Source: Candidatus Kerfeldbacteria bacterium
GTDB taxonomy: Bacteria > Patescibacteriota > Patescibacteriia > SBBC01
Reading direction: 5' to 3'
Length of the DNA: 64,000 nucleotides
NCBI GenBank assembly: GCA_043799405.1
Contig: JAZDNT010000003.1
Coordinates: forward strand, 15,461-79,460
Of this stretch, positions 14,990-55,476 are shown piece by piece. The position numbers and the translations under genes are program-made. The stretch's first letter is position 1. Each line of letters opens with the position of its first letter. Under the pieces are notes generated by a model, which did not search any database, had not been told where the DNA came from, and saw nothing but the letters and a program-made list of their open reading frames with translations.

Positions 14990-15196
14990 AAGTCTCCTTA
15001 ACTACATTTATTGACGCCACAACCATACCCCCCCCCCGACGTTTCTGTCAAACCTGTTTATCAACTAATTATTCACAATCCATTATTCATCCTGCACCAC
15101 AGTTACTACATCCATTGTGTCACCACTCTTCCCCATCAACCCCTTCTCAACCCCGTTAGAGAGACGCTCAATCACTCGTCAACAATTTTCACTTCA

Positions 15197-16606
15197 TTAC
15201 TCGTATATTAAAAGAGGCTCTCTAACGGGGTCAATCCCTGTAATATCCCACCCAACGGTCTTCCGGTAACCGATGCGGTCAGGCACATGGTGCCCGGCGA
15301 GCCCGAGCATGCTGCCCGGCACGATCACATACTCGCCGTAACGATCATTTATCTCATCCAAGGCCTTCTGCAATCCATAGTCTTTTGGCCCTGCCCCGCA
15401 CCGCTCCGAGCTTAGCGAGGAGCTGGTGCGGGGTTTCCCGAACAGCGACAGCTGCCGCGACACTGGTGCCAAGTCAAACGTGTACACCGCAAAGAAGCTC
15501 GGAATGCCGGTCATATGCTCCCGCCTAAAAATGTCGAGTGCCGTCCGGAACAGCACGCGCGTGTCCGCGGTTCTGTCAGGCAAGCGCACTGACTCTCCAA
15601 AAAAATCCGTCCGAGGGCTGCGGGTCTCGCGGGACCCGAGACCGAGGACACCTTCGGAAACGGGAGGCGTGGGAAGGGAGAAACCGCCAGCATTAGCGGG
15701 GTTTCTCTCTCCCAGTATTCCGAGCGTCGTCCCGAACCCGCACCACAGCGCGCCCGCTTCCATATCCAAACTCCGCAACCGCCTGCCGGTCTTTTCGCAG
15801 AGCTTTAAAAGTACGGCTTCATGGAACCGTTGGTCGTTCGTCCGCCTCCGCAGCACGTGGCTGTGCCCCACGGACTTCGGCGGACGAGGCGTCTGCACGC
15901 GCGACAACTCGATCGCATTGAGATTTGCCCAGAGCTCGTACCCGCGCATGCCGAACGACTGAATAAGGTTTGCGACGGGGTAGCGCTTGAGCTCCAATAG
16001 ATCCCGGATACCGAGGTCCATGAGTTTCGCTGCGGTCCGGTCCGCAATGCCCCAGGCCTCGGTAAGCTCGCGGCCCGTAAGGTACGCGTCGAGCATATCC
16101 GCAGTCAAAACCACTAATCCGCCCTTCTCACACGTGTCAGCGCCGAACTTCGCGAGCCATCTCGTCGCGGCAATCCCCATAGAACAGGTCAGCCACTCCC
16201 CGACCTCGCCCAAGATCCGCTGCTTGATCCGCCGCCCCAGTTCTGATGCGGCATCAAAATCAGCGACGAACCCGGTCAGGTTCACGAACGCCTCATCAAT
16301 CGAGTACGGCTCGATGTCCTCGGAGTATTCGGCGAGTATCGAAAAGATCTTCTCCGTCGTTGACCGATACTTCGGCGGGTCCACCTCCACCAAGATGACG
16401 TTCGGATCGATGGCGCGCGCATCTTGCACGCGGCAACCGACCTTGATGCCCTCTTTCTTCGCTTCCTTTGACGAAGCAATAATGCAGCCGTTCCGCGTCA
16501 TCGTCGCGCACACACCAAGCGGTTTTCCACGATAGAACGGATTCGCCTGCTGTTCTACCGAAGCGAAGTAACTGTTCATATCTAGGTGGAGAATTATTCT
16601 CTGCAT
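15197..16606 (-). CDS. dinB: Y-family DNA polymerase IV with an internal ~40-aa insertion
   Basis: MQRIILHLDMNSYFASVEQ..., YSIDEAFVNLTG catalytic motif, and HhH thumb. 469 aa, longer than I would expect for DinB. The extra segment is LGILGERNPANAGGFSLPTPPVSEGVLGLGSRETRSPRTDFF in the little-finger region. Confidence 0.88.
   Translation of the reverse strand: MQRIILHLDMNSYFASVEQQANPFYRGKPLGVCATMTRNGCIIASSKEAKKEGIKVGCRVQDARAIDPNVILVEVDPPKYRSTTEKIFSILAEYSEDIEPYSIDEAFVNLTGFVADFDAASELGRRIKQRILGEVGEWLTCSMGIAATRWLAKFGADTCEKGGLVVLTADMLDAYLTGRELTEAWGIADRTAAKLMDLGIRDLLELKRYPVANLIQSFGMRGYELWANLNAIELSRVQTPRPPKSVGHSHVLRRRTNDQRFHEAVLLKLCEKTGRRLRSLDMEAGALWCGFGTTLGILGERNPANAGGFSLPTPPVSEGVLGLGSRETRSPRTDFFGESVRLPDRTADTRVLFRTALDIFRREHMTGIPSFFAVYTFDLAPVSRQLSLFGKPRTSSSLSSERCGAGPKDYGLQKALDEINDRYGEYVIVPGSMLGLAGHHVPDRIGYRKTVGWDITGIDPVREPLLIYE
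15623..15713. repeat. GC-rich palindromic element lying in frame inside dinB
   Basis: GGTCTCG-CGGGACC-CGAGACC (15623-15643) and GGGAAGGGAGAAACCGCC-AGCATTA-GCGGGGTTTCTCTCTCCC (15671-15713). The second part resembles the intergenic repeat at 7161-7199 and 19876-19918. Confidence 0.55.
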
Positions 16607-18526: not shown

Positions 18527-19504
18527 TTACAACCGTATCTCCTTCTCCAACCACGGAATATGCTCGTGCTTCCTGCGCCAGAATACATCCTCCCAGATGT
18601 AATGAACTGCCAGCATGGCGTATTTCCCATAACACCACTTGATGTCCCTGCTGATCTTTTGTACCGGCACCAAACGTTTTCCATAAAACAGGCGCGAGTA
18701 GATCTTCTGCTGCCACGGCGTAATATGATCGAACGTACCGTCGTGATGCAGCGCCTCAAACAGCAGAATACGAGCGGTTTCCGGACCAACGCCGTACAGT
18801 GCCATCAGCGTCTGTTTCGCTGCTTCTTCCGTTGCACTTCGCAACGCAATCTCGTCAACGGTTTTTTCCACAAAATCCCGCGACAGCCGTTTCAGAAACT
18901 TTGCGCGGTAGCCGATCTTCAGTGCTCGCAAATCATCCTCCGATACATGACGCAATCTCTCCGGCAACCATATCGCATGCAACGTCTTACCGCCGAATGC
19001 AACGGTCATCCCGAACTTTTTCAGCAACGCATCGAGCATCTGGCTGCTCCTGCGTACGGTCGCGTTCTGCAACACAAGACCGACAACCAAAAGTTCATAT
19101 AAATTGAACTGGGCGGCGTTCCGCATGCCAGTCCATTTCCTGAACACCGGAAAGAACCGTCGATCTCGCCTCGCCAACGCATTAAACTCATGAAGGTCCT
19201 TGTCCAGCTCGAAACGGTACGCAATTTCATTCCGCACCGGCTCCAGTTCTTTCGCGGCAAGGGGTTTCCGGGAAAACACGGAAACCTGCATACTCGGCTT
19301 TCGCTGCGTTCCCATGTTCACGAAGATCAGGCCGTAGAGCCGTTCCCCCATGCGCAGCGTCTGCCAGTACTTCCCCGGAATCCAATCTTCGAGTTTCAAC
19401 ATATTGAGAAAATGCGACGGCTTATGGAACGTACCGTCAAAATGAAACGGCGGCTTCGGGTACAAGGTGAATGATGTTCGATGTGCTAGTTTTATAATCG
19501 TCAA
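18527..19504 (-). CDS. HhH-GPD superfamily DNA glycosylase (AlkA/3-methyladenine glycosylase II-like)
   Basis: LVVGLVLQNATVRRSSQMLDALLKKFG and the HhH motif LMALYGVGPETARILLF. N-terminal FTLYPKPPFHFDGTF is typical of this family. Apparent TTG start. Confidence 0.78.
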   Translation of the reverse strand: MTIIKLAHRTSFTLYPKPPFHFDGTFHKPSHFLNMLKLEDWIPGKYWQTLRMGERLYGLIFVNMGTQRKPSMQVSVFSRKPLAAKELEPVRNEIAYRFELDKDLHEFNALARRDRRFFPVFRKWTGMRNAAQFNLYELLVVGLVLQNATVRRSSQMLDALLKKFGMTVAFGGKTLHAIWLPERLRHVSEDDLRALKIGYRAKFLKRLSRDFVEKTVDEIALRSATEEAAKQTLMALYGVGPETARILLFEALHHDGTFDHITPWQQKIYSRLFYGKRLVPVQKISRDIKWCYGKYAMLAVHYIWEDVFWRRKHEHIPWLEKEIRL

Positions 19505-19526
19505 AAGTCAAATGTTACGTGTTTTC

Positions 19527-19775
19527 TCATACCCCACTCACCTCTTCCAACGTCCACACCAACGATTCCGGATCGTACACGAGCACAAAACTATTTCCCT
19601 CGTCCGACACGGCAAAGCACCACACGAACCGCTTACCCACGCGTTTCCGGTACACCAGGTTCACGCGCTGCACCTCGTACTTCCTCCCGGCACGCACGAA
19701 CGCGATCGGCCGAACCTGGCTGCCGTTGAAATCCGCGAACACCCGAACGTTTTCGTGCACTTTCTCAGTTTCCAT
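19527..19775 (-). CDS. small conserved-looking protein (82 aa), function unknown, upstream of the glycosylase
   Basis: Start moved to METEKVHENVRVFADFNG; the upstream part of the 143-aa track ORF runs through a repeat element. It lies 22 nt upstream of the glycosylase start and diverges from lexA. Confidence 0.5.
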   Translation of the reverse strand: METEKVHENVRVFADFNGSQVRPIAFVRAGRKYEVQRVNLVYRKRVGKRFVWCFAVSDEGNSFVLVYDPESLVWTLEEVSGV

Positions 19776-19875
19776 AATGTTCTCAACGTATTCCGTTGCG
19801 CCGCAGCGGCGAGGATCAGGGTGGCGGGCTTTGCCCGACGGGACCCTAGCCGAGACGCAAGGCGCGACACCATAG

Positions 19876-19918
19876 TAGGGAAGGAGTGGTATCGGACGAG
19901 GAAACCGCAGGTTGCCTC
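19876..19918 (+). repeat. GC-rich dispersed repeat, copy 2
   Basis: TAGGGAAGGAGTGGTATCGGACGAGGAAACCGCAGGTTGCCTC aligns with 7161-7199. Confidence 0.6.
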
Positions 19919-20036
19919 GCCGAATTTTGACCCGAATAAAACCCGAAGTTATCCACACCGTACCACTCGCCTGCGGCTCGTGTACGGTGCAGGCGCGTTA
20001 TTTCCTTTAAAAAGGGCTTATCTTAGGATACTTGAC

Positions 20037-20052
20037 TTCGGTTTTTCTTCGG
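20037..20052 (+). promoter_or_regulatory. TTCGGTTTTTCTTCGG 16-mer upstream of lexA (candidate operator/promoter element)
   Basis: Exact copy of 20845-20860. Preceded by TTGACT and followed by TATACC. Internally a direct repeat, TTCG-N7-TTCG. Confidence 0.45.
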
Positions 20053-20168
20053 TATACCCTTACAGTATCGCGATAACGGACTGGGGTCAAGAGCCAAAAG
20101 AGCGCGGACGAGGAAACTCCCAAACTCAAGCTCTTCCTCCCCTTCCACCATTCATTAGAGGAGGCACT

Positions 20169-20801
20169 ATGGCGCCAGTACTACCACGTCAGAAGCAAAA
20201 AATCCTTCAGTATCTGAAGGACTACATCGGTTTGCATGATTATGCGCCGACGCTTACCGAGATCGCAAAGGAGTTCAATCTTTCGTCGCTCGCGACAGTA
20301 CATGAACACCTCGGCTTTCTCGAGGATCGCGGGTTTATCCGGCGTATTGCCGGCGAGGACCGCGGTATTAAAATCATAGAACGAAAAGCTGATGAACCCG
20401 AGGGAGACTGGAAACCAAGCGTTTTACTTCCGCTTGTCGGTGTCATAACCGCTGGCAAGCCCATTGAAGCAGTTGAGCGGCCTGATGAAACAATCGCTGT
20501 TCCCGAGGAGATCGTACGGAGGAAGAACGCCTACGTTCTTAAGGTTCGCGGTGATTCCATGATCGAAAGCTTGATCGCTGATGGCGACTACGTCGTTGTC
20601 GAGAAGACGGACTATGCGCGTGACGGGGACATGGTTGTTGCCATGCTCGATGACGGAACTGCGACGCTTAAGAAGATCTTCCGAAAGAAAAACTTTGTCC
20701 GCCTGCAGCCGGCGAACAGAGCATATAGGCCGATCGATGTGCCGAACGTTATTGTACAGGGTAAGGTGCTCGGCGTACTGCGTTCTTATCAGCCGGTGTA
20801 A
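20169..20801 (+). CDS. lexA: LexA repressor
   Basis: Start moved to GGAGGCACT-ATG (MAPVLPRQKQKILQYLKDYIGLHDYAPTLTEIAKEF wHTH). Cleavage-site-like ITAGKP. Ser/Lys dyad context RGDSM ... LKK. Confidence 0.9.
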   Translation: MAPVLPRQKQKILQYLKDYIGLHDYAPTLTEIAKEFNLSSLATVHEHLGFLEDRGFIRRIAGEDRGIKIIERKADEPEGDWKPSVLLPLVGVITAGKPIEAVERPDETIAVPEEIVRRKNAYVLKVRGDSMIESLIADGDYVVVEKTDYARDGDMVVAMLDDGTATLKKIFRKKNFVRLQPANRAYRPIDVPNVIVQGKVLGVLRSYQPV

Positions 20802-48438: not shown

Positions 48439-49124
48439 ATCAACACTCTAGCATAGTTCCTTGTATGCTTTCCAGCGGGTCTCGGTGTCTTTATGGAATA
48501 CTGGCACCACCGCCGGATAGGACAGCGCCAGCACTGGGGCGTAATGGGGCGACACACGTCTTTACCGAACTTTACGAAAACGTCATTGACCGTCGACCAC
48601 TGCGCACGTGGAACGATCCTCAGAAGCGCCGTTTCCGATTGTTGCGGCGTTCGTGTTGTGATCCATCCTAACCGGTTACTGATACGATGGACGTGAACGT
48701 CAACAGCTATTGCAGGAACGCCGAATGCGAGTGATCGAACGATGTTCGCCGTCTTTCTGCCAACGCCCGGTAACGCCATGAGCGACTGCGTATCCCTCGG
48801 TACGTGGCCGTGATGGCGTGAAATGAGCAACTGAGATGTATGAAGTATATTCTGAGCTTTTACACGAAAGAACCCGATCTGATGTATAACGCGCTGTATA
48901 TCAGTTGTACGGGCACGTGCAAGAGCCCGAGGCGTCTTGTATCGAGAAAAGAGCGCATGAGCAACACAGTGCGTCGTCTCATCCCTTGTCCGTGCAGAGA
49001 GGATGGTCGAGATAAGGATCTCGAACGGTACTGAGCGATCAGAGGCTGATATACTCTTTCCGTGATACCGTCGCGCAAGGACCTTCAGGACGGGACCGAT
49101 GGTTGTTATACGGGACGTACTCAT
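48435..49124 (-). CDS. nth: endonuclease III
   Basis: HhH-GPD core (LMALPGVGRKTANIV) and a C-terminal 4Fe-4S cluster motif CRPITPQCWRCPIRRWC. Confidence 0.88.
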   Translation of the reverse strand: MSTSRITTIGPVLKVLARRYHGKSISASDRSVPFEILISTILSARTRDETTHCVAHALFSRYKTPRALARARTTDIQRVIHQIGFFRVKAQNILHTSQLLISRHHGHVPRDTQSLMALPGVGRKTANIVRSLAFGVPAIAVDVHVHRISNRLGWITTRTPQQSETALLRIVPRAQWSTVNDVFVKFGKDVCRPITPQCWRCPIRRWCQYSIKTPRPAGKHTRNYARVLI

Positions 49125-49861
49125 TCAATTCGGTCGCTTCTGATCAGACGGTTCATGACGCTTGACCATGGAATCTTAAAGATCGCATACACGAGTATGG
49201 TCAGCAGCATCAACGTCCCGAATTGATAGAGCAGCGCCGTTGAAACGGCGCTCAAACGCGTTGCACCCTGAACAAGCCGAGCGCTGAAAGCAATCGCCAA
49301 TCCGGCGCCGATCTTACCGGCAAGCGATGGCACGATAAGCTTCCAAGCAGAATAGCGGAGCATGCCAAGCGGTATGAACAGCACGTCATCCGGAAATGGA
49401 AGCAGTGAAAACGTGAAGAGGAGCGCGGGAACAACAGCAGGACGGTGCTCGACGATGCGTTTTAGGGCGGCATATTCAACCGGTCGACGGCGTTCCACGG
49501 AACCGGAGCTAAAACGACCGATACAGTAGCCGGACAGTTCGCCGATCACCGCACCGATGCCGGTTAGCACCCCGAGGAACACCGGGTTCAGACCGGCAGA
49601 TGCTAAAAAGAACGTCACGATCGTATAGGGCAAAACGATAACAACCGTAAGGTTCCCGACGAGGGCAGCGATGAATGCGCCAAAATATCCGTAGTGGACC
49701 GCCCATACGGTCCATGCCTCATAGAGCCGTTGGTTCCAGAAAGCAAATGTCTCGCTGGTAGCGACGAGTGCCGCACTAACGGCAAGCGCTGCGAGTATGC
49801 TCACCACCGCCCACTCGGGTTTTCCGAAACGCACATGCCGCTGCTGGGCCATACCGATCAT
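49121..49861 (-). CDS. DedA/TVP38-type (VTT domain) membrane protein
   Basis: Start placed at the ATGA overlap at 49858-49861. YGYFGAFIAALVGNLTVVIVLPYT and LPFPDDVLFIPLG are typical of the SNARE-associated/DedA fold. Confidence 0.65.
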   Translation of the reverse strand: MIGMAQQRHVRFGKPEWAVVSILAALAVSAALVATSETFAFWNQRLYEAWTVWAVHYGYFGAFIAALVGNLTVVIVLPYTIVTFFLASAGLNPVFLGVLTGIGAVIGELSGYCIGRFSSGSVERRRPVEYAALKRIVEHRPAVVPALLFTFSLLPFPDDVLFIPLGMLRYSAWKLIVPSLAGKIGAGLAIAFSARLVQGATRLSAVSTALLYQFGTLMLLTILVYAIFKIPWSSVMNRLIRSDRIE

Positions 49862-50157
49862 ACGAACGGCGGCTGACGCCCTCGTTCCCGCCATCGTCCG
49901 AGCGTTTCGACGACCGTCCAGAAACACACCGACACGCCGATGGTCCAGAGTACGTTCACGACGAACGGAACAACCTCGAACACCGGCCCGCCGGGACTGT
50001 ACGGGGAGAACGGTGTACGGAGAAACACCGGGAAACCAAATACAACGGTATCCACCGCGCATTTCGGCGTACAACTCTCTCTCCACATCGAGAAAAGCGT
50101 TGCCGCGACGAATAGTGCTGCGGCCGTAATGAGATACCTCCTGAATCTAGCGAACAT
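49858..50157 (-). CDS. small membrane protein (99 aa)
   Basis: ATG at 50157 preceded by GGAG. MFARFRRYLITAAALFVAATLF plus a second TM. Overlaps the rarA stop by 11 nt. Confidence 0.4.
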   Translation of the reverse strand: MFARFRRYLITAAALFVAATLFSMWRESCTPKCAVDTVVFGFPVFLRTPFSPYSPGGPVFEVVPFVVNVLWTIGVSVCFWTVVETLGRWRERGRQPPFV

Positions 50158-51563: not shown

Positions 51564-52262
51564 CTACTTTCCCCCGAACCGCCGCTCGCGCCGAGAATAT
51601 TCAGCGAGCGCCTCATCAAAATCTTTCGGAGTAAAGTCTGGCCAGAGCTTTGGCGAAAACACGAACTCGCTGTATTCAGCCTGCCATGCCATGAATCCCG
51701 AAAGCCGCATTTCCCCGCTCGTACGGATAATGAGCTCGGGATCGGGTATATCCGGCTGATACAGGTGTTTCGAGATGAGCGAGGTATCGATACGGTCAGG
51801 ATCCGGTTTCGACCGTACGATCGCACGGATAGCATCGACGAGTTCGGTCCGTCCTCCGTAGTTTAAGAGCACGTTGAGAACGCCCCCCGTATTCTGTCGT
51901 GTGAGATTCATTGCGTCCGCAACGAGATTCTGCAACCTCGTAGACAGCTCATGGATCCTGCCGGTAACGACGAGCCTTACGTTCTTCCGATGGAAATCCG
52001 CGACCTCCTCGCGAAGCACCCACTCAAGAAGGCGCATGAGGTACTGGACCTCGCGCTTCGCTCGCTTCCAGTTCTCGGTCGAAAAAGCCCAGACGCTTAG
52101 GTACTTCACGCCACGGTCGAGCGCCGCGTCGCCGATCCTCTTCAAGGTCTGGTAACCGATGCGATGACCTTCGAGCGCGGGTTTTCCGTGCTTCCGTGCC
52201 CAGCGACGGTTACCATCCATGATGATGGCGACGTGCTTCGGCACGGTATGAACTGATGACAT
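51564..52262 (-). CDS. uppS: undecaprenyl-diphosphate synthase (cis-isoprenyl transferase)
   Basis: Start moved to MSSVHTVPKHVAIIMDGNRRWA. The upstream part of the track ORF is translation across tRNA sequence. Confidence 0.9.
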   Translation of the reverse strand: MSSVHTVPKHVAIIMDGNRRWARKHGKPALEGHRIGYQTLKRIGDAALDRGVKYLSVWAFSTENWKRAKREVQYLMRLLEWVLREEVADFHRKNVRLVVTGRIHELSTRLQNLVADAMNLTRQNTGGVLNVLLNYGGRTELVDAIRAIVRSKPDPDRIDTSLISKHLYQPDIPDPELIIRTSGEMRLSGFMAWQAEYSEFVFSPKLWPDFTPKDFDEALAEYSRRERRFGGK

Positions 52263-52285
52263 ATGGATAGTATACACCTTTCGTT

Positions 52286-52340
52286 TGGTCGGGGTACCGG
52301 GACTCGAACCCGGGACCTCAGTTCCCCCGCACCACAATTG
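52286..52340 (-). pseudogene. tRNA-Pro-like 3' half, copy a (ends in CCA) with GTGGTGCGGGG helper strand
   Basis: Minus strand reads CAATTGTGGTGCGGGGGAACTGAGGTC CCGGG TTCGAGT CCCGG TACCCCG A CCA. Confidence 0.6.
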
Positions 52341-52367
52341 ACTGCTAAATGTCTTACTCACGCTTCC

Positions 52368-52423
52368 TGTCGGGGTACCGGGACTCGAACCCGGGACCTC
52401 AGTTCCCCCGCACCACAATTTTG
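52368..52423 (-). pseudogene. tRNA-Pro-like 3' half, copy b (ends ACA), contiguous with the trailer of inner tRNA-Pro
   Basis: Same 50 nt as copy a. Preceded by ACAAAATTGTGGTGCGGGG, which pairs with the leader at 52496-52514. Confidence 0.6.
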
Positions 52424-52495
52424 TCGGGGATGCGAGATTTGAACTCGCGACCTCTCGGTCCCGAACCGAGCGCGCTACCACTGCGCCAATCCCCG
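52424..52495 (-). tRNA. tRNA-Pro(CGG), complete cloverleaf, no encoded CCA
   Basis: CGGGGAT TG GCGC AGTGGTA GCGC G CTCGG TTCGGGA CCGAG AGGTC GCGAG TTCAAAT CTCGC ATCCCCG A. Confidence 0.85.
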
Positions 52496-52518
52496 ACAAA
52501 ATTGTGGTGCGGGGCGGG

Positions 52519-52576
52519 CCGAACCGTGCGCGCGGACTTTATCCCGCCGTATGGCGGGGAACTGCGCTATACCCCG
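52519..52576 (-). pseudogene. tRNA-Pro-like 5' portion (acceptor, D arm carrying a CCCCGCC-ATAC-GGCGGG hairpin, anticodon stem 5' strand and TTCGG)
   Basis: CGGGGTA TA GCGC AGTT CCCCGCCATACGGCGGG ATAAAGTCC GCGC G CACGG TTCGG, then CCCGCCCCGCACCAC.... The acceptor matches the 3' halves, but the 3' halves lack CCGTG to pair with CACGG. Confidence 0.5.
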
Positions 52577-52667
52577 AAGCAATACGTGGATTGTGAATTT
52601 ACGGCGCCCTGCCAACGGAGTTTATCCCGAGCTACCGCGAGGGACCATGCCCCGATGGTATCTAGTC

Positions 52668-52913
52668 TGGCAGGGGTGCCAGGGCTCGAACCTGGAATAA
52701 CGGTTTTGCCTGCCCGCCGTACGGAGGTATTTTTTAATGTGTACTGTATCAATGTCATTAATTGGCAGGGGCGGAAGGTGTCGCACCCTCATTACCGGTT
52801 TTGGAGACCGGTGTTCTACTGCTGAACTACGCCCCCATCAACTAACGACAGATTGTTTTCTCCGTACTCCGGCAGGCGGGGAGACCGTTGTGATACCGTT
52901 TCACTACACCCCC
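52668..52913 (-). tRNA. interrupted tRNA-Trp(CCA) (outer gene): exons 52881-52913 and 52668-52708 separated by a 172-nt insertion
   Basis: Joined exons give GGGGGTG TA GTGA AACGGTA TCAC A ACGGT CTC|CAAA ACCGT TATT CCAGG TTCGAGC CCTGG CACCCCT G CCA, a canonical cloverleaf. The insertion sits at anticodon position 34/35 (or 35/36 by sliding). Confidence 0.6.
52763..52836 (-). tRNA. tRNA-Trp(CCA) (inner gene) with a non-canonical elbow
   Basis: GGGGGCG TA GTTC AGCAGTA GAAC A CCGGT CTCCAAA ACCGG TAAT GAGGG TGCGACA CCTTC CGCCCCT G CCA. The D loop lacks GG, and the T loop has G where U55 is expected. Confidence 0.75.
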
Positions 52914-53002
52914 ATCAAAACTGGTGCTGGATTGAAAACTATTCCTGCCCGGCGAAGCCGGGTCCGGCTCTGCCGGAAACGACGCTCCCGCGATTGTAGC
53001 TC

Positions 53003-53164
53003 TCATTTCAATTTCGCTTCTTTATGGAGCGTATGTTTCTTGCACCACTTGCAATACTTCTTCAGTTCGATCTTCACCTTGACCTTTTTCTTGTTACGTC
53101 TCGAAAAGTAATTGACGTGCTTGCACACACCGCATGAGAGACCGATAAGATTGTCTTGGGACAT
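53003..53164 (-). CDS. rpmG: 50S ribosomal protein L33 (53 aa, zinc-ribbon type)
   Basis: Own translation: MSQDNLIGLSCGVCKHVNYFSRRNKKKVKVKIELKKYCKWCKKHTLHKEAKLK. Below the ORF-track size cutoff. Confidence 0.85.
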   Translation of the reverse strand: MSQDNLIGLSCGVCKHVNYFSRRNKKKVKVKIELKKYCKWCKKHTLHKEAKLK

Positions 53165-53198
53165 AAGGAATGGTTAATTAGGAATTGTGTTCGTTCAG

Positions 53199-53570
53199 TT
53201 AATTAAGGTGGCGGGCTTTGGCAAGATACTTAATATATGCATTGAGTCCGATCAATAGGCCTTCGTACTCGTGATCAAATGAATTGAATTCTTCTTCAGG
53301 CAGATACCCCAGACCCTCGGCAACTTTTAGATGACTTCTTGTTTCAAACACCTCGCCACGAGATTGGTAGAGAACTCGAATTTTATCGTTAAATGAATGC
53401 CTTCCCTGGCTTTCAGCGATATTCGCGATAATGGCATTAGCCGACCGTCTTAGCTGATCTATCAGACCATATCGTTCAGATGTTGGAAAGCGCTCAGTTA
53501 TCCGATAGACGTTGAGAACGAGCGTATATCCGTTCTTCCAGATATCGAGTTGATAGAATGATTGTGGCAT
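53199..53570 (-). CDS. four-helix-bundle protein of the 23S rRNA intervening-sequence (IVS) protein family
   Basis: MPQSFYQLDIWKNGYTLVLNVYRITERFPTSERYGLIDQLRRSANAIIANIAESQGR... is the typical signature of this family. Confidence 0.8.
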   Translation of the reverse strand: MPQSFYQLDIWKNGYTLVLNVYRITERFPTSERYGLIDQLRRSANAIIANIAESQGRHSFNDKIRVLYQSRGEVFETRSHLKVAEGLGYLPEEEFNSFDHEYEGLLIGLNAYIKYLAKARHLN

Positions 53571-53638
53571 AACTTTTCTTTCTTGCCACCAATCTTTAGT
53601 TTCTTAATTAACTTAATTAACTATTATCTTCCTGCTGA

Positions 53639-53869
53639 AGCCGGTGGTCGGATTTGAACCGACGACCTACTGTTTATCCCGATGTTCTCAAAATCTTGCC
53701 GGTGGAGCCGGAGAGCGGATTCGAACCGCTGACCTGCTGTTTACAAAACAGCTGCTCTACCGCTGAGCTACTCCGGCAAGATTTTGTAAGAACATCGAGG
53801 ATCCCGCGTACTATACCTTATTTATCGGAGCGGGACAAAACAGTTGCTCTACCACTGAGCTACACCGGC
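53639..53869 (-). tRNA. interrupted tRNA-Thr(UGU) (outer gene): exons 53835-53869 and 53639-53675 separated by a 159-nt insertion; no CCA
   Basis: Joined exons give GCCGGTG TA GCTC AGTGGTA GAGC A ACTGT TTTGT|AA ACAGT AGGTC GTCGG TTCAAAT CCGAC CACCGGC T. Confidence 0.6.
53703..53777 (-). tRNA. tRNA-Thr(UGU) (inner gene), CCA encoded
   Basis: GCCGGAG TA GCTC AGCGGTA GAGC A GCTGT TTTGTAA ACAGC AGGTC AGCGG TTCGAAT CCGCT CTCCGGC T CCA. Confidence 0.9.
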
Positions 53870-53906
53870 GTGGCGGACGCGTCCGAACATCGGACAATCC
53901 TCTGCT

Positions 53907-53935
53907 TGTATACCATTTTTCCGGTGCATCTTCAA
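53907..53935 (-). promoter_or_regulatory. candidate promoter for the Thr(UGU) unit (TTGAAG-17-TATACA)
   Basis: On the minus strand, TTGAAG at 53935-53930 and TATACA at 53912-53907, about 35 nt upstream of the outer tRNA 5' end. Confidence 0.4.
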
Positions 53936-53965
53936 CAGTCGCAGAATGATGAGAAGGGTTATTAC

Positions 53966-54273
53966 TGGTGGGCAGGGTAGGATTTCTCACCCCGCACCAC
54001 TTTCTTTCGTGCACTGGTGGGTGGAGTAGGATTCGAACCTACGAAGGCCGGAGGCCACCTGATTTACAGTCAGGTCCGTTTGACCGCTTCGGTATCCACC
54101 CTGGCCTTAGAAATTCTCCATCATGGTTGTGAAAGAAAGTGGTGCGGGGCGGGCCTACGAAGGCCGGAGGTCACCTGATTTATGCCGCCGTTGGCGGCAT
54201 CCCGCCTTCCTTAGATTGCTTGAGGAATTGTGGCGGGACAGTCAGGCCCGTTTGACCGCTTCGGTACCTGCCC
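53966..54273 (-). tRNA. interrupted tRNA-Tyr(GUA)-like (outer gene) in three pieces: 54238-54273, 54154-54181, 53966-53989
   Basis: GGGCAGG TA CCGA AGCGGTCAAA CGGG CCTGA CTGT | 56-nt insertion | AAA TCAGG TGACCTCCGGCCTTC GTAGG | 164-nt insertion containing the inner tRNA-Tyr | TGAGAAAT CCTAC CCTGCCC A CCA. The resulting T loop is non-canonical. Confidence 0.45.
54015..54101 (-). tRNA. tRNA-Tyr(GUA) (inner gene), long variable arm, CCA encoded
   Basis: GGGTGGA TA CCGA AGCGGTCAAA CGGA CCTGA CTGTAAA TCAGG TGGCCTCCGGCCTTC GTAGG TTCGAAT CCTAC TCCACCC A CCA. Confidence 0.88.
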
Positions 54274-54274
54274 A

Positions 54275-54527
54275 TGGAGCCGATGCGCGGATTTGAACCG
54301 CGGACCTACTTGCCCAGCATCCAATGTGATACTGGGCTACTTACCCCCGTATTACGCCCGCGTCAAGTGCGGTCGTACGCGGGGCAAGCATGGAGTTGCG
54401 TCATTCACCCCGCCGCTTCTGGAGCCGATGCGCGGATTTGAACCGCGGACCTACTCCTTACCATGGAGTTGCTCTACCAACTGAGCTACATCGGCAGAAG
54501 CGGCGGGGCCAACTGAGCTACATCGGC
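54275..54527 (-). pseudogene. degenerate outer tRNA-Thr-like gene enclosing inner tRNA-Thr(GGU)
   Basis: 5' piece GCCGATG TA GCTC AGTTGG (54509-54527) and 3' piece AGGTC CGCGG TTCAAAT CCGCG CATCGGC T CCA (54275-54309) are identical to the inner gene. The middle keeps GC A ACTCC ATG, but I cannot reconstruct a D-stem 3' strand or an anticodon-stem 3' strand. Confidence 0.4.
54420..54495 (-). tRNA. tRNA-Thr(GGU) (inner gene), CCA encoded
   Basis: GCCGATG TA GCTC AGTTGGTA GAGC A ACTCC ATGGTAA GGAGT AGGTC CGCGG TTCAAAT CCGCG CATCGGC T CCA. Confidence 0.9.
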
Positions 54528-54552
54528 GAATAGTGTGTCTATTGTATACGTG

Positions 54553-55476
54553 CTACGCCCGTCGATGAACGTTGGTCAACATCGTATCGATCCGAGAGGT
54601 GAATTCGGCGAGTTTTTGGTTTTCCGGATTTACCGATCGGAGCTTTTCGAGCGTTTCGAGCGCCCACTCTCGTTTTCCGGCGACGATGCTCGCCTCGACG
54701 AGCGCGTCGAGGAACTTCGGGTTGTTCGGTTCGAGTTCCACCGTCCGCCTGCTGCTCTCAAACGCCCCGATACTATCACCGAGGGCAAGCTGAACCCTCG
54801 AGAGATCGAGGTAGTGCTGCGCAACGTGGCCGTTGATCACGATCGACTTCTCGAAATCACGGCGTGCTTCATCATATTTCCCTTCTCCTGAAGCGACGAG
54901 TCCGAGCTCCGCGTATAGTTCATCATCCTCTACCTTGAGACGCTGAATGACGAACTGCAGCGTTTCGCGGGCATGTTCATAATCCTTCTGTTCGATGTAT
55001 ATTAATGCGAGCTGTCGGTATGCAGAAACGCTCCGTGGGTCGATGCTGATCGCAGCGATCGTCCGCTGTTCCGCTGCTGAAAGGTCGCCTGCCGTCATTG
55101 AGCTTCTCGCGTCATCGAGGAGCTGTTCTATCTTCTGTACTTTCTCTGCTTTCGCTTCCGGCGTCAGGACTTCTTCCTGCAACGTTCGTGCACGGTATCG
55201 CTTTTCAAGTTCAAGGAGTTTCTGGTACTGTGACCGTAAGAACCTTCCTGCCGACGATGCAACAGGCCGAAGCGCCTTGCCGGTCGTTCTCGTAACATTG
55301 GATAACTTCCTCCGGAAACGTTGTTCAATGAGTTTTGATTTCAGCTCATCGTGCTGCTCTGCAGGAATGCTCTTCGTATCAATGACCGCAAGTTTCGGGA
55401 ACTTACGAACGACAATGACGATAATCATTACAAGCGCACTGACCGCGAGGATGGCAACGATGATATCAATCAACAT
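54553..55476 (-). CDS. membrane-anchored TPR-repeat protein
   Basis: N-terminal TM MLIDIIVAILAVSALVMIIVIVV. C-terminal TPR-like repeats (AYRQLALIYIEQKDYEHARETLQ...). Confidence 0.72.
   Translation of the reverse strand: MLIDIIVAILAVSALVMIIVIVVRKFPKLAVIDTKSIPAEQHDELKSKLIEQRFRRKLSNVTRTTGKALRPVASSAGRFLRSQYQKLLELEKRYRARTLQEEVLTPEAKAEKVQKIEQLLDDARSSMTAGDLSAAEQRTIAAISIDPRSVSAYRQLALIYIEQKDYEHARETLQFVIQRLKVEDDELYAELGLVASGEGKYDEARRDFEKSIVINGHVAQHYLDLSRVQLALGDSIGAFESSRRTVELEPNNPKFLDALVEASIVAGKREWALETLEKLRSVNPENQKLAEFTSRIDTMLTNVHRRA

What the first reader, a model, noticed from the sequence alone, without database searches (positions are those of the whole stretch)
52286..52576. One tRNA-Pro 5' portion but two tandem 3' halves, each carrying the same helper strand
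Downstream of the inner tRNA-Pro(CGG), the 3' half (GGGGGAACTGAGGTC CCGGG TTCGAGT CCCGG TACCCCG A) occurs twice.
- Copy b (52368-52423) ends ACA.
- Copy a (52286-52340) ends CCA.
- Both are preceded by AATTGTGGTGCGGGG, which can pair with the single CCCCGCACCACAATT strand after the 5' portion (52519-52576).

The acceptor strands match (CGGGGTA / TACCCCG). However, the 3' halves lack a CCGTG strand to pair with the CACGG anticodon stem. Instead, GCGGGGGAACTG is complementary to CAGTTCCCCGC in the D region.

The layout recalls split tRNA genes, where halves are brought together by complementary GC-rich flanks, but here everything is in cis and duplicated.
Basis: seen in the sequence. Interest (0 to 1): 0.6.

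Follow-up and report, generated by a model that had tools for sequence, protein, structure and literature searches.

The report
Nested tRNA-Pro gene remnants around replacement cassette
The two tRNA-Pro 3' halves and the lone 5' portion look like wreckage of older tRNA-Pro genes, broken by small palindromic DNA cassettes that each brought a replacement tRNA, and this tRNA-inside-tRNA layering recurs in related Kerfeldbacteria and seems undescribed.

Summary
A 52-nt exact repeat (52288-52339 = 52369-52420) puts two tRNA-Pro 3' halves downstream of the intact tRNA-Pro(CGG) at 52423-52495 (minus strand). Each half is preceded by AATTGTGGTGCGGGG, which matches the single CCCCGCACCACAATT.

The split-tRNA reading is not supported.
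- The "helper strands" are the terminal inverted repeats of a palindromic cassette (ends CCCCGC...GCGGGG) that carries the intact tRNA.
- The outer Pro pieces cannot form a tRNA-Pro: the D loop is replaced by a hairpin and the anticodon stem is broken.
- They match, base for base, an allele that is still intact in relatives.
- Copy b, its 29-nt trailer and the right arm are homologous to the inner gene, trailer and arm in relative L082. Copy a is therefore the 3' remnant of an older layer.

All five tRNAs of this cluster are nested in the same way. Relatives show one to three layers, or clean single genes. Every fully covered nest encloses one intact tRNA of its own isoacceptor.

Elements with similar ends also interrupt the dinB-like gene here, and all cassette stems are perfect Watson-Crick. 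Both points indicate DNA-level insertions.

Best reading: repeated disrupt-and-replace insertion followed by decay. The enzyme is unknown. RNA-level splicing of the two still-perfect outer genes, Thr(UGU) and Trp, is not excluded.

The parts
52423..52495 (-). Innermost, intact tRNA-Pro(CGG), here called type B (acceptor CGGGGAT/ATCCCCG). It is the only functional-looking Pro gene at the locus. CCA is not encoded; the gene is followed by ACA.
   Evidence: ARAGORN. Rfam tRNA model, 69.8 bits.
52499..52518 (-). Left arm of the palindromic cassette, CCCG-CCCCGCACCACAATTT. The stretch GGCCCGCCCCGCACCAC is identical to the left end of the Tyr cassette.
   Evidence: I1, I6, D14; coordinates.
52406..52420 (-). 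Together with AA and the ACA/TGT bases it forms a 26-bp perfect helix continuous with the acceptor stem of the inner tRNA.
   Evidence: I1: 26 nt, 100% complementary. The fold uses this helix.
52519..52576 (-). 5' portion of the previous resident tRNA-Pro, type A (CGGGGTA...CACGG TT CGG). The D-loop bases GGTA are replaced by the hairpin CCCCGCCATACGGCGGG (52559-52543) plus ATAAAGTCC. The gene is cut after the anticodon CGG.
   Evidence: It is 100% identical, in the segments it retains, to the intact inner Pro of L082 (sequence).
52369..52405 (-). 3' half, copy b: GA-ACTG-AGGTC, T arm, TACCCCGAC, then A (the ACA end). It corresponds to the 3' part of the cassette-borne type A gene, which is still intact in L082.
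   Evidence: D6. blastn of copy b + trailer + right arm against the L082 inner gene + trailer + right arm gives 83% over 96 nt, E = 3e-18.
52340..52368 (-). 29-nt trailer/spacer AGGAAGCGTGAGTAAGACATTTAGCAGTC between copy b and the distal right arm. It is homologous to the trailer inside the L082 cassette.
   Evidence: same alignment; sequences.
52325..52339 (-). Distal right arm AATTGTGGTGCGGGG, the "helper strand" of copy a. It is the right-hand end of an earlier cassette layer.
   Evidence: I6: 15 nt, 100% complementary to 52500-52514.
52286..52324 (-). 3' half, copy a, ending in an encoded CCA 23 nt upstream of the uppS start codon. It is the 3' remnant of the outer, original chromosomal tRNA-Pro. 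It carries the same derived lesion as copy b (GAACTG instead of GACCGTG).
   Evidence: Uninterrupted orthologues L086 and L251 end ...CCCCGACCA just upstream of the next gene.
52606..52629 (-). Possible older, degenerate tRNA-Pro 5' remnant, CGGGATAAACTCCGTTGGCAGGGC.
   Evidence: The local alignment score equals the 95th percentile of shuffles. However, window positions about 52659-52600 align over about 60 nt with the outermost Pro remnant of L085 (one search gives 83% over 30 nt).
52668..52913 (-). Nested Trp. The outer tRNA-Trp(CCA) halves are 52913-52880 and 52707-52668. They are split inside the anticodon by a palindrome-flanked insert that carries the inner tRNA-Trp (52836-52763).
   Evidence: The in-silico spliced outer gene is a perfect tRNA-Trp. 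The uninterrupted orthologue is in L251.
53636..53869 (-). Nested Thr(UGU). The outer halves are 53869-53835 and 53675-53636. The insert sits exactly between positions 36 and 37. It consists of the hairpin 53834-53803, the arms 53802-53778 and 53697-53676, and the inner tRNA 53777-53703.
   Evidence: The same cassette occurs in L083 and L087. The empty site is seen in L082.
53966..54273 (-). Nested Tyr. The outer tRNA-Tyr is interrupted in the anticodon by two hairpins (54237-54182). It is also interrupted in the T loop by a cassette with arms 54153-54131 and 54008-53990, which carries the inner tRNA-Tyr (54101-54015).
   Evidence: (I2: 19 nt, 100%). The spliced outer gene is not recognised by ARAGORN at default settings.
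54271..54527 (-). Nested Thr(GGU). The outer copy is split in the D loop by a cassette with arms CCCCGCCGCTTCT/AGAAGCGGCGGGG, which carries the inner tRNA (54495-54420). Further hairpin inserts lie downstream.
   Evidence: (I8). The spliced outer gene is not a tRNA.

Best explanation
**What it is.** The stretch is the debris of earlier tRNA-Pro(CGG) genes wrapped around the one working gene. In this branch of Candidatus Kerfeldbacteria, small palindromic DNA elements occur whose ends read (C/T)CCCGC...GCGGG(G/A). Their loop can hold a complete tRNA gene. They sit inside the resident tRNA gene of the same anticodon, mostly in its anticodon loop. The insertion destroys the resident gene, and the cargo tRNA replaces its function ("disrupt and replace"). 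Repetition gives an onion of gene remnants that then decay.

**The Pro locus.**
- The working gene is 52495-52423.
- Its palindrome arms are 52514-52500 and 52420-52406.
- The 5' portion (52576-52519) and copy b (52405-52369) are what is left of the previous gene, allele "A", which is still intact in relatives.
- Copy a, with its own right arm (52339-52286), is the right-hand junction of a still older layer, the original chromosomal gene with its encoded CCA next to uppS. The left-hand partner of that layer has been lost or has decayed.
- The two 3' copies share a derived lesion, so they are copies of one another, made by recombination or gene conversion involving the block arm + 3' half. They are not alternative exons.

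**Shown:** the anatomy; homology to intact alleles and to layered relatives; the defects in the outer Pro; one intact tRNA of the matching isoacceptor inside each fully covered nest; elements with similar ends interrupting a protein-coding gene.

**Inferred:**
- The order of events.
- Mobility of the cassettes, with survival only of insertions whose cargo matches the gene they destroy.
- That in the transcript the 26-bp helix serves as a processing stem, isolating the inner tRNA for RNase III, RNase P and RNase Z.
- The inserting enzyme is unknown.
For: 1. **Repeat and palindrome anatomy.** Established.

2. **Match to an intact allele.** The retained outer segments are 100% identical to the intact inner Pro of L082. 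Copy b + trailer + right arm aligns with the L082 inner 3' end + trailer + right arm at 83% over 96 nt, E = 3e-18. The junction CACGGTTCGG + CCCGCCCCGCACCACAAT is identical over 33 nt (sequence).

3. **Shared lesion and end signatures.** Both 3' copies, and the homologous L082 layer, carry GA(A/G)CTG instead of GACCGTG. Copy b ends ACAGG like the L082 cassette-borne gene. Copy a ends ACCA like the outer L082 layer and like the uninterrupted genes of L086 and L251.

4. **The outer Pro is not a tRNA.** It is not a tRNA-Pro after in-silico removal of the inserts.

5. **All five tRNAs of the cluster are nested in a copy of the same isoacceptor**.

6. **Relatives.** They show clean single genes (L086, L251, L088), two layers (L083, L211) or three or more layers (L082, L085, L087). 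Outer copies are progressively truncated; for example the outer Trp of L083 lacks its T arm.

7. **One intact tRNA per nest.** ARAGORN finds one intact tRNA of the matching isoacceptor inside each nest that the held sequence covers fully, and never a second intact copy of that isoacceptor at the locus. The outer Tyr of L085 runs off the contig start, and L082 shows no Thr(GGU).

8. **Same cassette, different targets.** The same Thr(UGU) cassette arms sit at exactly 36|37 in three different outer Thr alleles (window, L083, L087). L082 has the window's outer allele uninterrupted, which is the empty site.

9. **Motif enrichment.** CCCCGC is enriched roughly 6- to 10-fold in the tRNA region, 6 observed against 0.6-0.9 expected.

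10. **Perfect stems.** All cargo-flanking stems (12-25 bp, ten or so loci) are perfect Watson-Crick with no G.U pairs.

11. **A protein gene is interrupted too.** The dinB-like gene carries a 45-nt in-frame CCCCGCACC...GGTGCGGGG hairpin that is absent from 8 homologues. It also carries an 82-nt ACCCCGT...ACGGGGT palindrome that introduces a stop, while the downstream frame still encodes the homologues' EKxLMGK C-terminus.

12. **Precedent.** Disruption of an essential tRNA gene rescued by an element-borne tRNA of the same isotype is described for phages (PMC10865867).
Against: - No transposase, integrase or nuclease was found near the cluster or in the parts of the window that were scanned. 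How a cassette moves is therefore unknown.
- No consistent target-site duplication or target motif was found.
- The cassette arms differ between loci except for the 6-11 terminal bases, which is unlike typical copy-and-paste MITEs.
- The outer Thr(UGU) and outer Trp are still perfect cloverleaves once the insert is removed. The outer Thr alleles of the window and L083 differ by compensated stem changes. This would also fit functional, spliced outer genes.
- Some hairpins in outer remnants are conserved between genomes whose UppS proteins are only 72% identical, such as the Tyr anticodon hairpins in the window and L085. That is more conservation than expected for neutral debris.
- The 100% identity of copies a and b needs an extra step, gene conversion or block recombination.
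- There are no expression data.
Confidence: 0.6

Rival explanations
1. RNA-level nested genes. The palindromic inserts are a new kind of bacterial tRNA intron. The inner tRNA is cut out by RNase P and RNase Z (or RNase III), and the outer halves, held together by the arms, are trimmed and ligated. One transcript would then give two tRNAs. At the Pro locus the two 3' halves would be alternative 3' exons.
For: - Inserts sit exactly in loops without loss or gain of exon bases in the outer Thr(UGU), Trp and Tyr anticodon loops.
- The spliced outer Thr(UGU) and Trp are perfect tRNAs.
- The outer Thr alleles of the window and L083 differ by compensated changes, while the intron arms are nearly identical.
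- The inner Trp of the window is atypical (D loop AGCAGTA, T loop TGCGACA), whereas the outer Trp is canonical.
- Group I introns at unusual anticodon-loop positions are already known in Patescibacteria (PMC13011429).
Against: - The outer Pro, Thr(GGU) and Tyr of the window, and many outer copies in relatives, lack arms or have broken stems.
- Each nest fully covered by the held sequence still encloses an intact copy of its isoacceptor.
- The stems have no G.U pairs.
- Elements with similar ends lie in a protein-coding gene, one in frame and one creating a stop.
- There is no Rfam intron or ribozyme hit even at E <= 10.
- There is no bulge-helix-bulge geometry.
- No splicing enzyme is known in bacteria for such junctions.
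Confidence: 0.13
2. No mobile cassette. The layers arise in place by homologous recombination or gene conversion with imported DNA from related strains (allelic tRNA genes A and B). The palindromic arms are made by fold-back (snap-back) repair synthesis at breaks in the hairpin-rich tRNA DNA. The two 3' halves would be a local recombination product.
For: - The arms are unique per locus yet perfectly complementary.
- The same arms enclose cargo A in L082 but cargo B in the window, with the A and B roles swapped.
- Both 3' copies share the same lesion, so the block arm + 3' half was copied as a unit.
- In Thr(GGU) the inner and outer copies are identical in their shared parts (D7).
Against: - The conserved termini CCCCGC/GCGGGG occur at unrelated sites, including dinB.
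- The same Thr cassette sits at the same position in three different alleles.
- The patchy distribution among relatives fits invasion.
Confidence: 0.17
3. Scars of integrase-mediated integration of a phage or integrative element into the tRNA-Pro gene. The duplicated 3' halves would be attL/attR-type repeats left after the element was deleted.
For: Integration into tRNA genes typically duplicates the 3' part from the anticodon loop onward. Here the repeat starts at the anticodon loop.
Against: - Only 29 nt lie between the repeats, and no integrase or phage genes are nearby.
- The repeats are each preceded by one arm of an inverted repeat that encloses a complete tRNA. att recombination does not produce this.
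- The 5' halves are also layered.
- Scans of viral contigs with the arm sequences gave only chance hits.
Confidence: 0.05
4. Assembly artefact. The layered repeats would be a chimera of strain variants in a metagenome-assembled genome.
For: The window comes from a MAG. Identical 52-nt repeats 81 nt apart are the kind of place where assemblers can err.
Against: Nested arrangements with the same logic occur in independent assemblies from different projects: GCA_040960375.1, GCA_005239865.1 plus a Logan assembly of SRR6943130, GCA_016207275.1 and GCA_016193315.1. The repeat unit is shorter than a read.
Confidence: 0.03

Closest known systems
tRNA-dependent lysogeny of actinobacteriophages (Guerrero-Bustamante & Hatfull 2024, PMC10865867)
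   Same: The logic is the same. [quoted passage not shown]
   Different: There the element is a whole temperate phage with a tyrosine integrase and an attP/attB core. Here the element is a cassette of about 100-190 bp with no protein gene and with palindromic arms. It is often inserted in the anticodon loop and stacked repeatedly.
Palindromic insertion elements: Rickettsia palindromic elements, Correia elements and other MITEs (from my own knowledge of the literature)
   Same: These are short non-coding elements with terminal inverted repeats. They fold into hairpins, insert into RNA genes and in frame into protein-coding genes, and have a patchy distribution among relatives.
   Different: Only the 6-11 terminal bases are shared between copies. 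The rest of each stem is unique but perfectly paired, and no regular target-site duplication was seen. Some copies carry a complete tRNA gene and sit inside the cognate tRNA gene. No parent IS has been identified.
Archaeal split, tri-split, permuted and multi-intron tRNA genes (reviews PMC4090602, PMC3978253)
   Same: tRNA coding sequence is interrupted at the anticodon loop, D loop or T loop. GC-rich complementary sequences lie next to the halves.
   Different: Those halves are joined at bulge-helix-bulge motifs by the splicing endonuclease and a ligase, they are the only source of that tRNA, and they rebuild a full cloverleaf. Here the organism is a bacterium, the junction is a perfect continuous helix, an intact copy is always enclosed, and the Pro halves do not rebuild a tRNA.
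[quoted passage not shown] 2026, PMC13011429)
   Same: The phylum is the same, and the insertion positions in the anticodon loop (around 35/36 to 36/37) are unusual in the same way.
   Different: Those are self-splicing ribozymes recognised by group I models. The inserts here give no Rfam intron hit, are too small apart from the enclosed tRNA, and carry a tRNA.
Integration of mobile elements at tRNA genes with 3'-half duplication (from my own knowledge)
   Same: There is a direct repeat of the tRNA 3' part that starts in the anticodon loop.
   Different: There is no integrase and no element between the repeats. Inverted-repeat arms and layered 5' halves are not produced by att-site recombination.

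Membership tests
Split / BHB-intron tRNA genes (archaeal type) | The exon halves rebuild a complete cloverleaf tRNA of the stated identity. | tested here: not met
   The 5' portion joined to copy a or copy b gives only a bogus Val(cac) call with a defective D arm and no Pro anticodon arm. The anticodon-stem strands are CACGG and ACTG.
Split / BHB-intron tRNA genes (archaeal type) | There is a bulge-helix-bulge motif at the exon-intron junctions. | tested here: not met
   The junction helix is a continuous perfect duplex of 15-26 bp. The MFE fold shows only a small asymmetric internal loop at its base, not two 3-nt bulges separated by 4 bp.
Split / BHB-intron tRNA genes (archaeal type) | The interrupted gene is the (only) source of that tRNA. 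| tested here: not met
   An intact tRNA-Pro(CGG) lies inside. One intact tRNA of the matching isoacceptor is found inside each fully covered nest. Only this locus could be examined, not whole genomes.
Split / BHB-intron tRNA genes (archaeal type) | A tRNA splicing endonuclease (EndA) and a ligase are present in the genome. | not testable with these tools
   Only 64 kb of the genome is available, and not every ORF of the window was scanned. The ORFs that were scanned gave no such hit.
Group I intron in tRNA | A conserved group I catalytic core is recognisable by the covariance model. | tested here: not met
   cmscan of 52200-54650 at E <= 10 gives no intron or ribozyme family.
MITE-like / palindromic insertion element | Terminal inverted repeats are shared by several copies. 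| tested here: met
   The termini (C/T)CCCGC...GCGGG(G/A) are shared by the Pro, Tyr and Thr(GGU) cassettes, small hairpins, the dinB insert and the relatives' cassettes. The shared part is short, 6-17 nt.
MITE-like / palindromic insertion element | Presence/absence polymorphism occurs at orthologous sites (filled versus empty). | tested here: met
   Empty sites are seen for Thr(UGU) in L082, for Trp and Pro in L251, and for the whole cluster in L086. The dinB inserts are absent from 8 homologues.
MITE-like / palindromic insertion element | There is a target-site duplication of fixed length. | tested here: inconclusive
   There is no duplication at the Thr(UGU), Trp or Tyr anticodon sites. A TG/TG repeat flanks the 82-nt dinB palindrome. 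Other junctions are ambiguous.
MITE-like / palindromic insertion element | A related autonomous element or transposase exists in the genome. | not testable with these tools
   None was found among the window ORFs scanned. The rest of the genome was not available. A GIY-YIG ORF lies next to the nested Pro of L211, but no link has been shown.
Disrupt-and-replace insertion (as in tRNA-dependent lysogeny) | [quoted passage not shown] | tested here: met
   This holds for five of five nests in the window and for the nests in L082, L083, L085, L087 and L211.
Disrupt-and-replace insertion (as in tRNA-dependent lysogeny) | The element is a phage with an integrase and an attP/attB core. | tested here: not met
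   There is no ORF inside the cassettes and no integrase nearby. Viral-contig scans gave only chance matches.
Integrase att-site scar at a tRNA gene | Direct repeats of the tRNA 3' part flank an integrated element that encodes an integrase. | tested here: not met
   The direct repeat is present, but the copies are separated by only 29 nt, and no integrase was found.

The most novel reading that the evidence does not exclude
The palindromic inserts are removed at the RNA level by an unknown bacterial pathway. Under this reading, the outer genes that are still perfect, Thr(UGU) and Trp here, are functional, and one precursor yields two tRNAs, a gene nested in the anticodon loop of another. The Pro locus would be a decayed example of that system. 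A slightly less radical version is that the cassettes are an active, self-rescuing selfish element that homes specifically to the anticodon loop of the tRNA it carries.
Probability: 0.13. Interest if true: 0.9.

Novelty: new variant of a known kind. Interest (0 to 1): 0.66.

Why it matters
**If the reading is right.** These small-genome bacteria carry a class of tiny palindromic DNA elements that can overwrite essential, apparently single-copy tRNA genes by bringing their own replacement. They leave a readable stratigraphy of dead tRNA genes. Three consequences would follow.
- It would be a minimal, protein-free form of the "disrupt and replace" strategy, known so far from whole phages.
- It gives a route for horizontal replacement of tRNA alleles. 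That may be relevant to arms races with tRNA-targeting toxins or with elements that integrate into tRNA genes.
- It is a practical warning for annotation. tRNA finders report only the inner genes, and the debris can be mistaken for split or intron-containing tRNAs.

**If the outer genes are instead spliced.** It would be a new bacterial RNA-processing pathway.

**Testability.** Either outcome can be tested directly with tRNA-seq of samples that contain these organisms.

Tried and rejected
1. **Metagenome scan.** All were chance matches in high-GC genomes, and none had a partner arm.

2. **Viral-contig scans.** Scans for CCCCGCACCACAATT and TCCCGCACCATCCTGG gave only chance hits without the inverted partner.

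3. **GTDB genome scan with UppS.** No relative was closer than 52% identity, and the top loci had no syntenic tRNA cluster. Closer relatives had to be reached through the protein database.

4. **Context look-ups.** The look-up of the window's own UppS (P0001) for gene context was not on record. The look-ups of P0005, P0008, P0012 and P0020 returned loci without the tRNA cluster upstream of uppS. P0036 (L211) is likewise non-syntenic, although it carries a nested Pro elsewhere in the locus.

5. **Group I, group II or ribozyme intron.** Rejected: no Rfam hit at E <= 10.

6. **Simple 81-bp tandem duplication.** Rejected. The 29-nt spacer occurs only once, and it is homologous to the cassette trailer of L082.

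7. **Functional pairing of the D-region CAGTTCCCCGC with GCGGGGGAACTG.** Rejected as a conserved feature. It is built from two unrelated element termini plus 5 nt, and it is absent from L082.

8. **Promoter and terminator scan.** No more sites than in shuffled sequence.

9. **General excess of perfect hairpins in the window.** None overall: 17 against 9-15 in shuffles. The signal is specific to the CCCCG-ended elements.

10. **Resemblance to a CRISPR type I-E repeat.** The D-loop hairpin (GTTCCCCGCC..GGCGGGATAAAG) resembles the E. coli repeat as I recall it. I treat this as a coincidence of GC-rich hairpins. There is no array structure.

11. **Literature searches.** Searches for nested tRNA genes, palindromic elements in tRNA genes, and Kerfeldbacteria tRNA found no description of this arrangement.
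Full report
**Observation.**
All relevant features are on the minus strand. ARAGORN and Rfam find five intact tRNAs in the window, all within one cluster:
- Thr(GGU) at 54495-54420
- Tyr at 54101-54015
- Thr(UGU) at 53777-53703
- Trp at 52836-52763
- Pro(CGG) at 52495-52423

Downstream of the Pro gene there is a 52-nt direct repeat at 100% identity, 52288-52339 = 52369-52420 (D6). Each copy consists of AATTGTGGTGCGGGG followed by a tRNA-Pro 3' half (GA ACTG AGGTC CCGGG TTCGAGT CCCGG TACCCCGAC). Upstream of the Pro gene lie the complementary strand CCCCGCACCACAATT and, before it, a tRNA-Pro 5' portion (52576-52519). The proximal pair of arms forms a 26-bp perfect helix that is continuous with the acceptor stem of the inner tRNA (I1). 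The distal arm matches the same left arm over 15 nt (I6).

Two corrections apply:
- The D-region complementarity needs a one-base bulge, and six of its pairs are just the conserved element ends.
- A further, degenerate 5' remnant lies upstream at about 52629-52606.

**Context.**
The neighbouring genes are ribosomal protein S2, EF-Ts, a TPR protein, the tRNAs, rpmG, the tRNAs, uppS and an MgsA-type ATPase. The UppS protein is 100% identical to one from a Candidatus Kerfeldbacteria MAG contig of 495 kb. This is a CPR/Patescibacteria bacterium.

Reading the minus strand shows that every one of the five tRNAs lies inside a second, interrupted copy of a tRNA with the same anticodon.
- The inner genes are flanked by inverted repeats that begin CCCCGC and end GCGGGG.
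- Smaller hairpins with the same ends sit in loops of the outer copies: the D loop of Pro and the anticodon loops of Tyr and Thr.
- On the tRNA strand, CCCCGC occurs 6 times in the 2.4-kb cluster against 0.6-0.9 expected from the window as a whole.

**Anatomy of the Pro locus.** Reading 5' to 3' on the minus strand:
- a possible old remnant (52629-52606)
- the type A 5' portion CGGGGTA TA GCGC AGTT, in which the D-loop bases GGTA are replaced by CCCCGCCATACGGCGGG-ATAAAGTCC, followed by GCGC G CACGG TT CGG
- the left arm CCCG-CCCCGCACCACAATTT
- the inner type B tRNA-Pro
- the right arm
- 3' half copy b, ending ACA
- a 29-nt trailer
- the right arm again
- 3' half copy a, ending in an encoded CCA, 23 nt before the uppS start codon

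**The outer Pro cannot function.**
- Its D loop has lost G18/G19.
- Its anticodon loop is interrupted.
- The 3' strand of its anticodon stem reads ACTG instead of CCGTG.

After in-silico removal of the inserts, ARAGORN calls only a spurious Val(cac) with a defective D arm, whichever 3' copy is used. The MFE fold of the whole transcript pairs the 5' acceptor strand with copy a and keeps the inner tRNA on its long helix. The z-score is -6.2, but the fold contains no Pro anticodon arm for the outer molecule and no bulge-helix-bulge.

**Comparative evidence.**
GTDB representative genomes contain no close relative. UppS homologues from the large protein collection led to syntenic loci.

| Locus | UppS identity to window | State of the tRNA cluster |
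|---|---|---|
| L086 | 67% | Clean, single genes (Thr-Tyr-Thr-rpmG-Trp-Pro-uppS) |
| L251 | 72% | Clean, single Trp and Pro; only the rpmG-Trp-Pro-uppS part lies on the contig |
| L083 / L084 | 77% | Two layers |
| L082 | 78% | Three layers at Pro |
| L085 | 72% | Three or more layers |
| L087 | 75% | Three or more layers |
| L211 | 57% | Different synteny; also has a nested Pro with hairpins in its D arm |

Four observations tie the window to these relatives.

1. The retained parts of the window's outer Pro are 100% identical to the intact innermost Pro of L082.
2. Copy b + trailer + right arm aligns with the L082 inner 3' end + trailer + right arm at 83% over 96 nt, E = 3e-18. The junction CACGGTTCGG + CCCGCCCCGCACCACAAT is identical over 33 nt.
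3. Copy b and the L082 cassette-borne gene both end ACAGG, without an encoded CCA. Copy a, the L082 outer layer and the uninterrupted genes of L086 and L251 all end ACCA.
4. Both window copies and the homologous L082 layer carry the same derived lesion, GA(A/G)CTG for GACCGTG.

Copy b therefore corresponds to the 3' part of a cassette-borne type A gene. Copy a corresponds to the 3' remnant of the gene into which that cassette had gone. The block "right arm + damaged 3' half" has been copied as a unit.

The single 5' portion can be explained in two ways:
- a deletion between the repeated left junctions, which are at least 33 nt identical; or
- a recombination that replaced leader + type A 5' part with type B cargo + right arm, using the left junction and the 3' half as homology.

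I cannot tell these two apart.

**What the palindromes are.**
In all loci the stems that flank cargo tRNAs are perfect Watson-Crick duplexes of 12-25 bp, with no G.U pair in any true stem. This is unusual for helices maintained only at the RNA level and points to DNA-level palindromes.

Elements with similar ends also interrupt a protein-coding gene. The window's Y-family polymerase (dinB-like, 15197-16606) is 469 aa, against 405-430 aa in the eight homologues that were aligned.
- It carries a 45-nt in-frame insert that is the hairpin CCCCGCACC...GGTGCGGGG (15394-15433).
- It also carries an unrelated 111-nt in-frame insert.
- An 82-nt palindrome with a 14-bp perfect stem, ACCCCGTTAGAGAG...CTCTCTAACGGGGT (15150-15231), is flanked by TG/TG and introduces a stop codon. 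The frame downstream still encodes EKGLMGK, which is the homologues' C-terminal consensus.

These are insertions into DNA, not tRNA-specific introns. Filled and empty orthologous sites exist:
- Thr(UGU) is uninterrupted in L082.
- Trp and Pro are uninterrupted in L251.
- The whole cluster is clean in L086.

The same Thr(UGU) cassette, with arms ATCCTCGA(A/T)GTTCTT(A/T)CAAAATCTT, sits exactly between positions 36 and 37 of three different outer Thr alleles: the window, L083 and L087. That argues for site-specific spread rather than a single inherited event.

**Are the outer genes functional?**

*Against function:*
- The outer Pro, Thr(GGU) and Tyr of the window are not recognisable as tRNAs after removal of the inserts.
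- The outer Trp of L083 and L085 has lost its T arm.
- Outer layers in L085 and L087 are chimeric or have a hairpin in place of the T arm.
- ARAGORN finds one intact tRNA of the matching isoacceptor inside each nest that the held sequence covers fully, which is what one expects if interrupted copies cannot substitute. The outer Tyr of L085 runs off the contig start, so its enclosed or upstream copy cannot be checked, and L082 shows no Thr(GGU).

*For function:*
- The outer Thr(UGU) and Trp of the window become perfect cloverleaves when the insert is removed.
- Outer Thr alleles differ between genomes by compensated changes.
- Some hairpins in outer remnants are conserved between fairly distant genomes.

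I read the perfect outer genes as recent victims. The window's outer Trp is the orthologue of the sole Trp of L251, with two compensated pair changes. Splicing cannot be excluded without RNA data.

**Most likely mechanism.**
The best-supported explanation is repeated "disrupt and replace". A palindromic cassette with a tRNA gene in its loop enters the cognate resident tRNA gene. Insertions are tolerated only when the cargo matches the essential gene that is destroyed, because these small genomes appear to keep one copy per isoacceptor. The dead outer copy then collects cargo-free hairpins, deletions and recombination products. The next cassette enters the new inner gene.

The Pro alleles A and B alternate between layers in different genomes:
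- window: B inside A
- L082: A inside B inside an A-like gene
- L085: A inside B
- L083 and L087: B inside an A-like gene

This suggests exchange between lineages.

Status of the parts of this account:
- *Shown:* the anatomy, the homologies, the defects, the filled and empty sites, and the occurrence in a protein gene.
- *Inferred:* mobility, the survivorship filter, the order of events, and the idea that in the transcript the long helix acts as a processing stem that isolates the inner tRNA. From general knowledge, RNase III would cut the long stem and RNase P and RNase Z would then finish the ends.
- *Unknown:* the enzyme. No transposase, integrase or nuclease was found among the window ORFs scanned. 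The only hint is an 87-aa GIY-YIG ORF directly downstream of the nested Pro in L211.

**Rivals.**
- RNA-level nested genes with a new splicing pathway, about 0.13.
- In-place generation by recombination with imported alleles plus fold-back repair, about 0.17.
- Integrase att scars, about 0.05.
- Assembly artefact, about 0.03. The same logic recurs in at least four independent assemblies.

**Comparison with what is known.**
- The logic matches tRNA-dependent lysogeny (PMC10865867), but without a phage or an integrase.
- The vehicle resembles palindromic insertion elements such as Rickettsia palindromic elements or Correia elements (my own knowledge). It differs in having very short shared ends, unique perfect stems, no regular target duplication, and a tRNA as cargo.
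- It is not a split or BHB-intron tRNA: three defining features were tested and not met.
- It is not a group I intron of the kind recently described in Patescibacteria tRNAs (PMC13011429).
- Searches of the held literature found no description of tRNA genes nested in cognate tRNA genes in bacteria. This is an absence in that library only.

**Verdict.**
The specific finding, two 3' halves with "helper strands", is explained as layered debris and not as a tRNA assembled from pieces. On its own that is ordinary pseudogene material. It does, however, expose a lineage-wide and apparently undescribed way in which tRNA genes are overwritten. I rate it a new variant of known kinds: palindromic insertion elements combined with the disrupt-and-replace logic. 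Interest is moderately high, and a smaller chance remains of something more unusual, namely RNA-level nested genes.

**Limits.**
- Only one locus per genome could be examined.
- No expression data exist.

Noticed in passing
window 52668-54527 (minus strand): All five tRNAs of the cluster, not only Pro, are nested inside an interrupted copy of a tRNA with the same anticodon: Thr GGU, Tyr, Thr UGU, Trp and Pro. The outer Thr(UGU) and outer Trp become perfect tRNAs if the insert is removed.
   Followed up: yes
window 15150-15231, 15394-15433 and about 15598-15712 (dinB-like ORF 15197-16606, minus strand): The Y-family DNA polymerase gene carries three inserts that are absent from its closest homologues. 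The first is a 45-nt in-frame CCCCGCACC...GGTGCGGGG hairpin. The second is a 111-nt in-frame insert of another kind. The third is an 82-nt palindrome with a 14-bp perfect stem, flanked by TG/TG. It introduces a stop, while the downstream frame still encodes the homologues' C-terminus.
   Followed up: yes
window 53189-53621 (minus strand): A 123-aa 23S rRNA intervening-sequence protein gene (PF05635, four-helix bundle) lies between the outer Thr(UGU) and rpmG. It is bracketed by AT-rich inverted repeats containing TTAATTAA. In relatives L082, L083, L085, L086 and L087 no gene is called between the last Thr gene or remnant and rpmG. It therefore looks like a separate insertion.
   Followed up: partly
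window 52763-52836 (minus strand): The inner tRNA-Trp is atypical. Its D loop is AGCAGTA (A in place of G18) and its T loop is TGCGACA (G in place of U55), a possible covariation of the G18-U55 tertiary pair. The interrupted outer Trp is canonical.
   Followed up: no
L211 2841-3104: An 87-aa GIY-YIG domain ORF (PF01541, E = 1e-13) lies about 100 nt downstream of the nested tRNA-Pro of a more distant Kerfeldbacteria genome. It is a candidate nuclease for cassette homing, but no link has been shown.
   Followed up: partly
L251 45-149: Even the uninterrupted tRNA-Trp of this otherwise clean relative is flanked by a 24-nt inverted repeat (83% complementary) ending CCAGCACC/GGTGCTGG. This is a variant of the cassette ends, which suggests a cassette whose outer remnants have disappeared.
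   Followed up: partly
window 53810-53838 (minus strand): A sigma-70-like promoter match (TTGTCC, 17 nt, TATAGT) spans the outer Thr anticodon and the loop of the first hairpin, about 35 nt upstream of the inner tRNA-Thr(UGU). The number of such matches is no higher than in shuffled sequence.
   Followed up: no
window 52543-52564 (minus strand): The D-loop hairpin with its flanks (AGTTCCCCGCC ATAC GGCGGGATAAAG) resembles the E. coli type I-E CRISPR repeat (GAGTTCCCCGCGCCAGCGGGGATAAACCG, from memory). There is no array structure, so this is probably coincidence.
   Followed up: no
window 49121-50086 and 19467-20801: The longest ORF for the VTT-domain protein is 321 aa, against 239-246 aa for the genes called in relatives. 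The longest ORF for the LexA-like protein is 444 aa, with the LexA domains only in residues 239-434. These may be further insertions or simply mis-chosen start codons.
   Followed up: no
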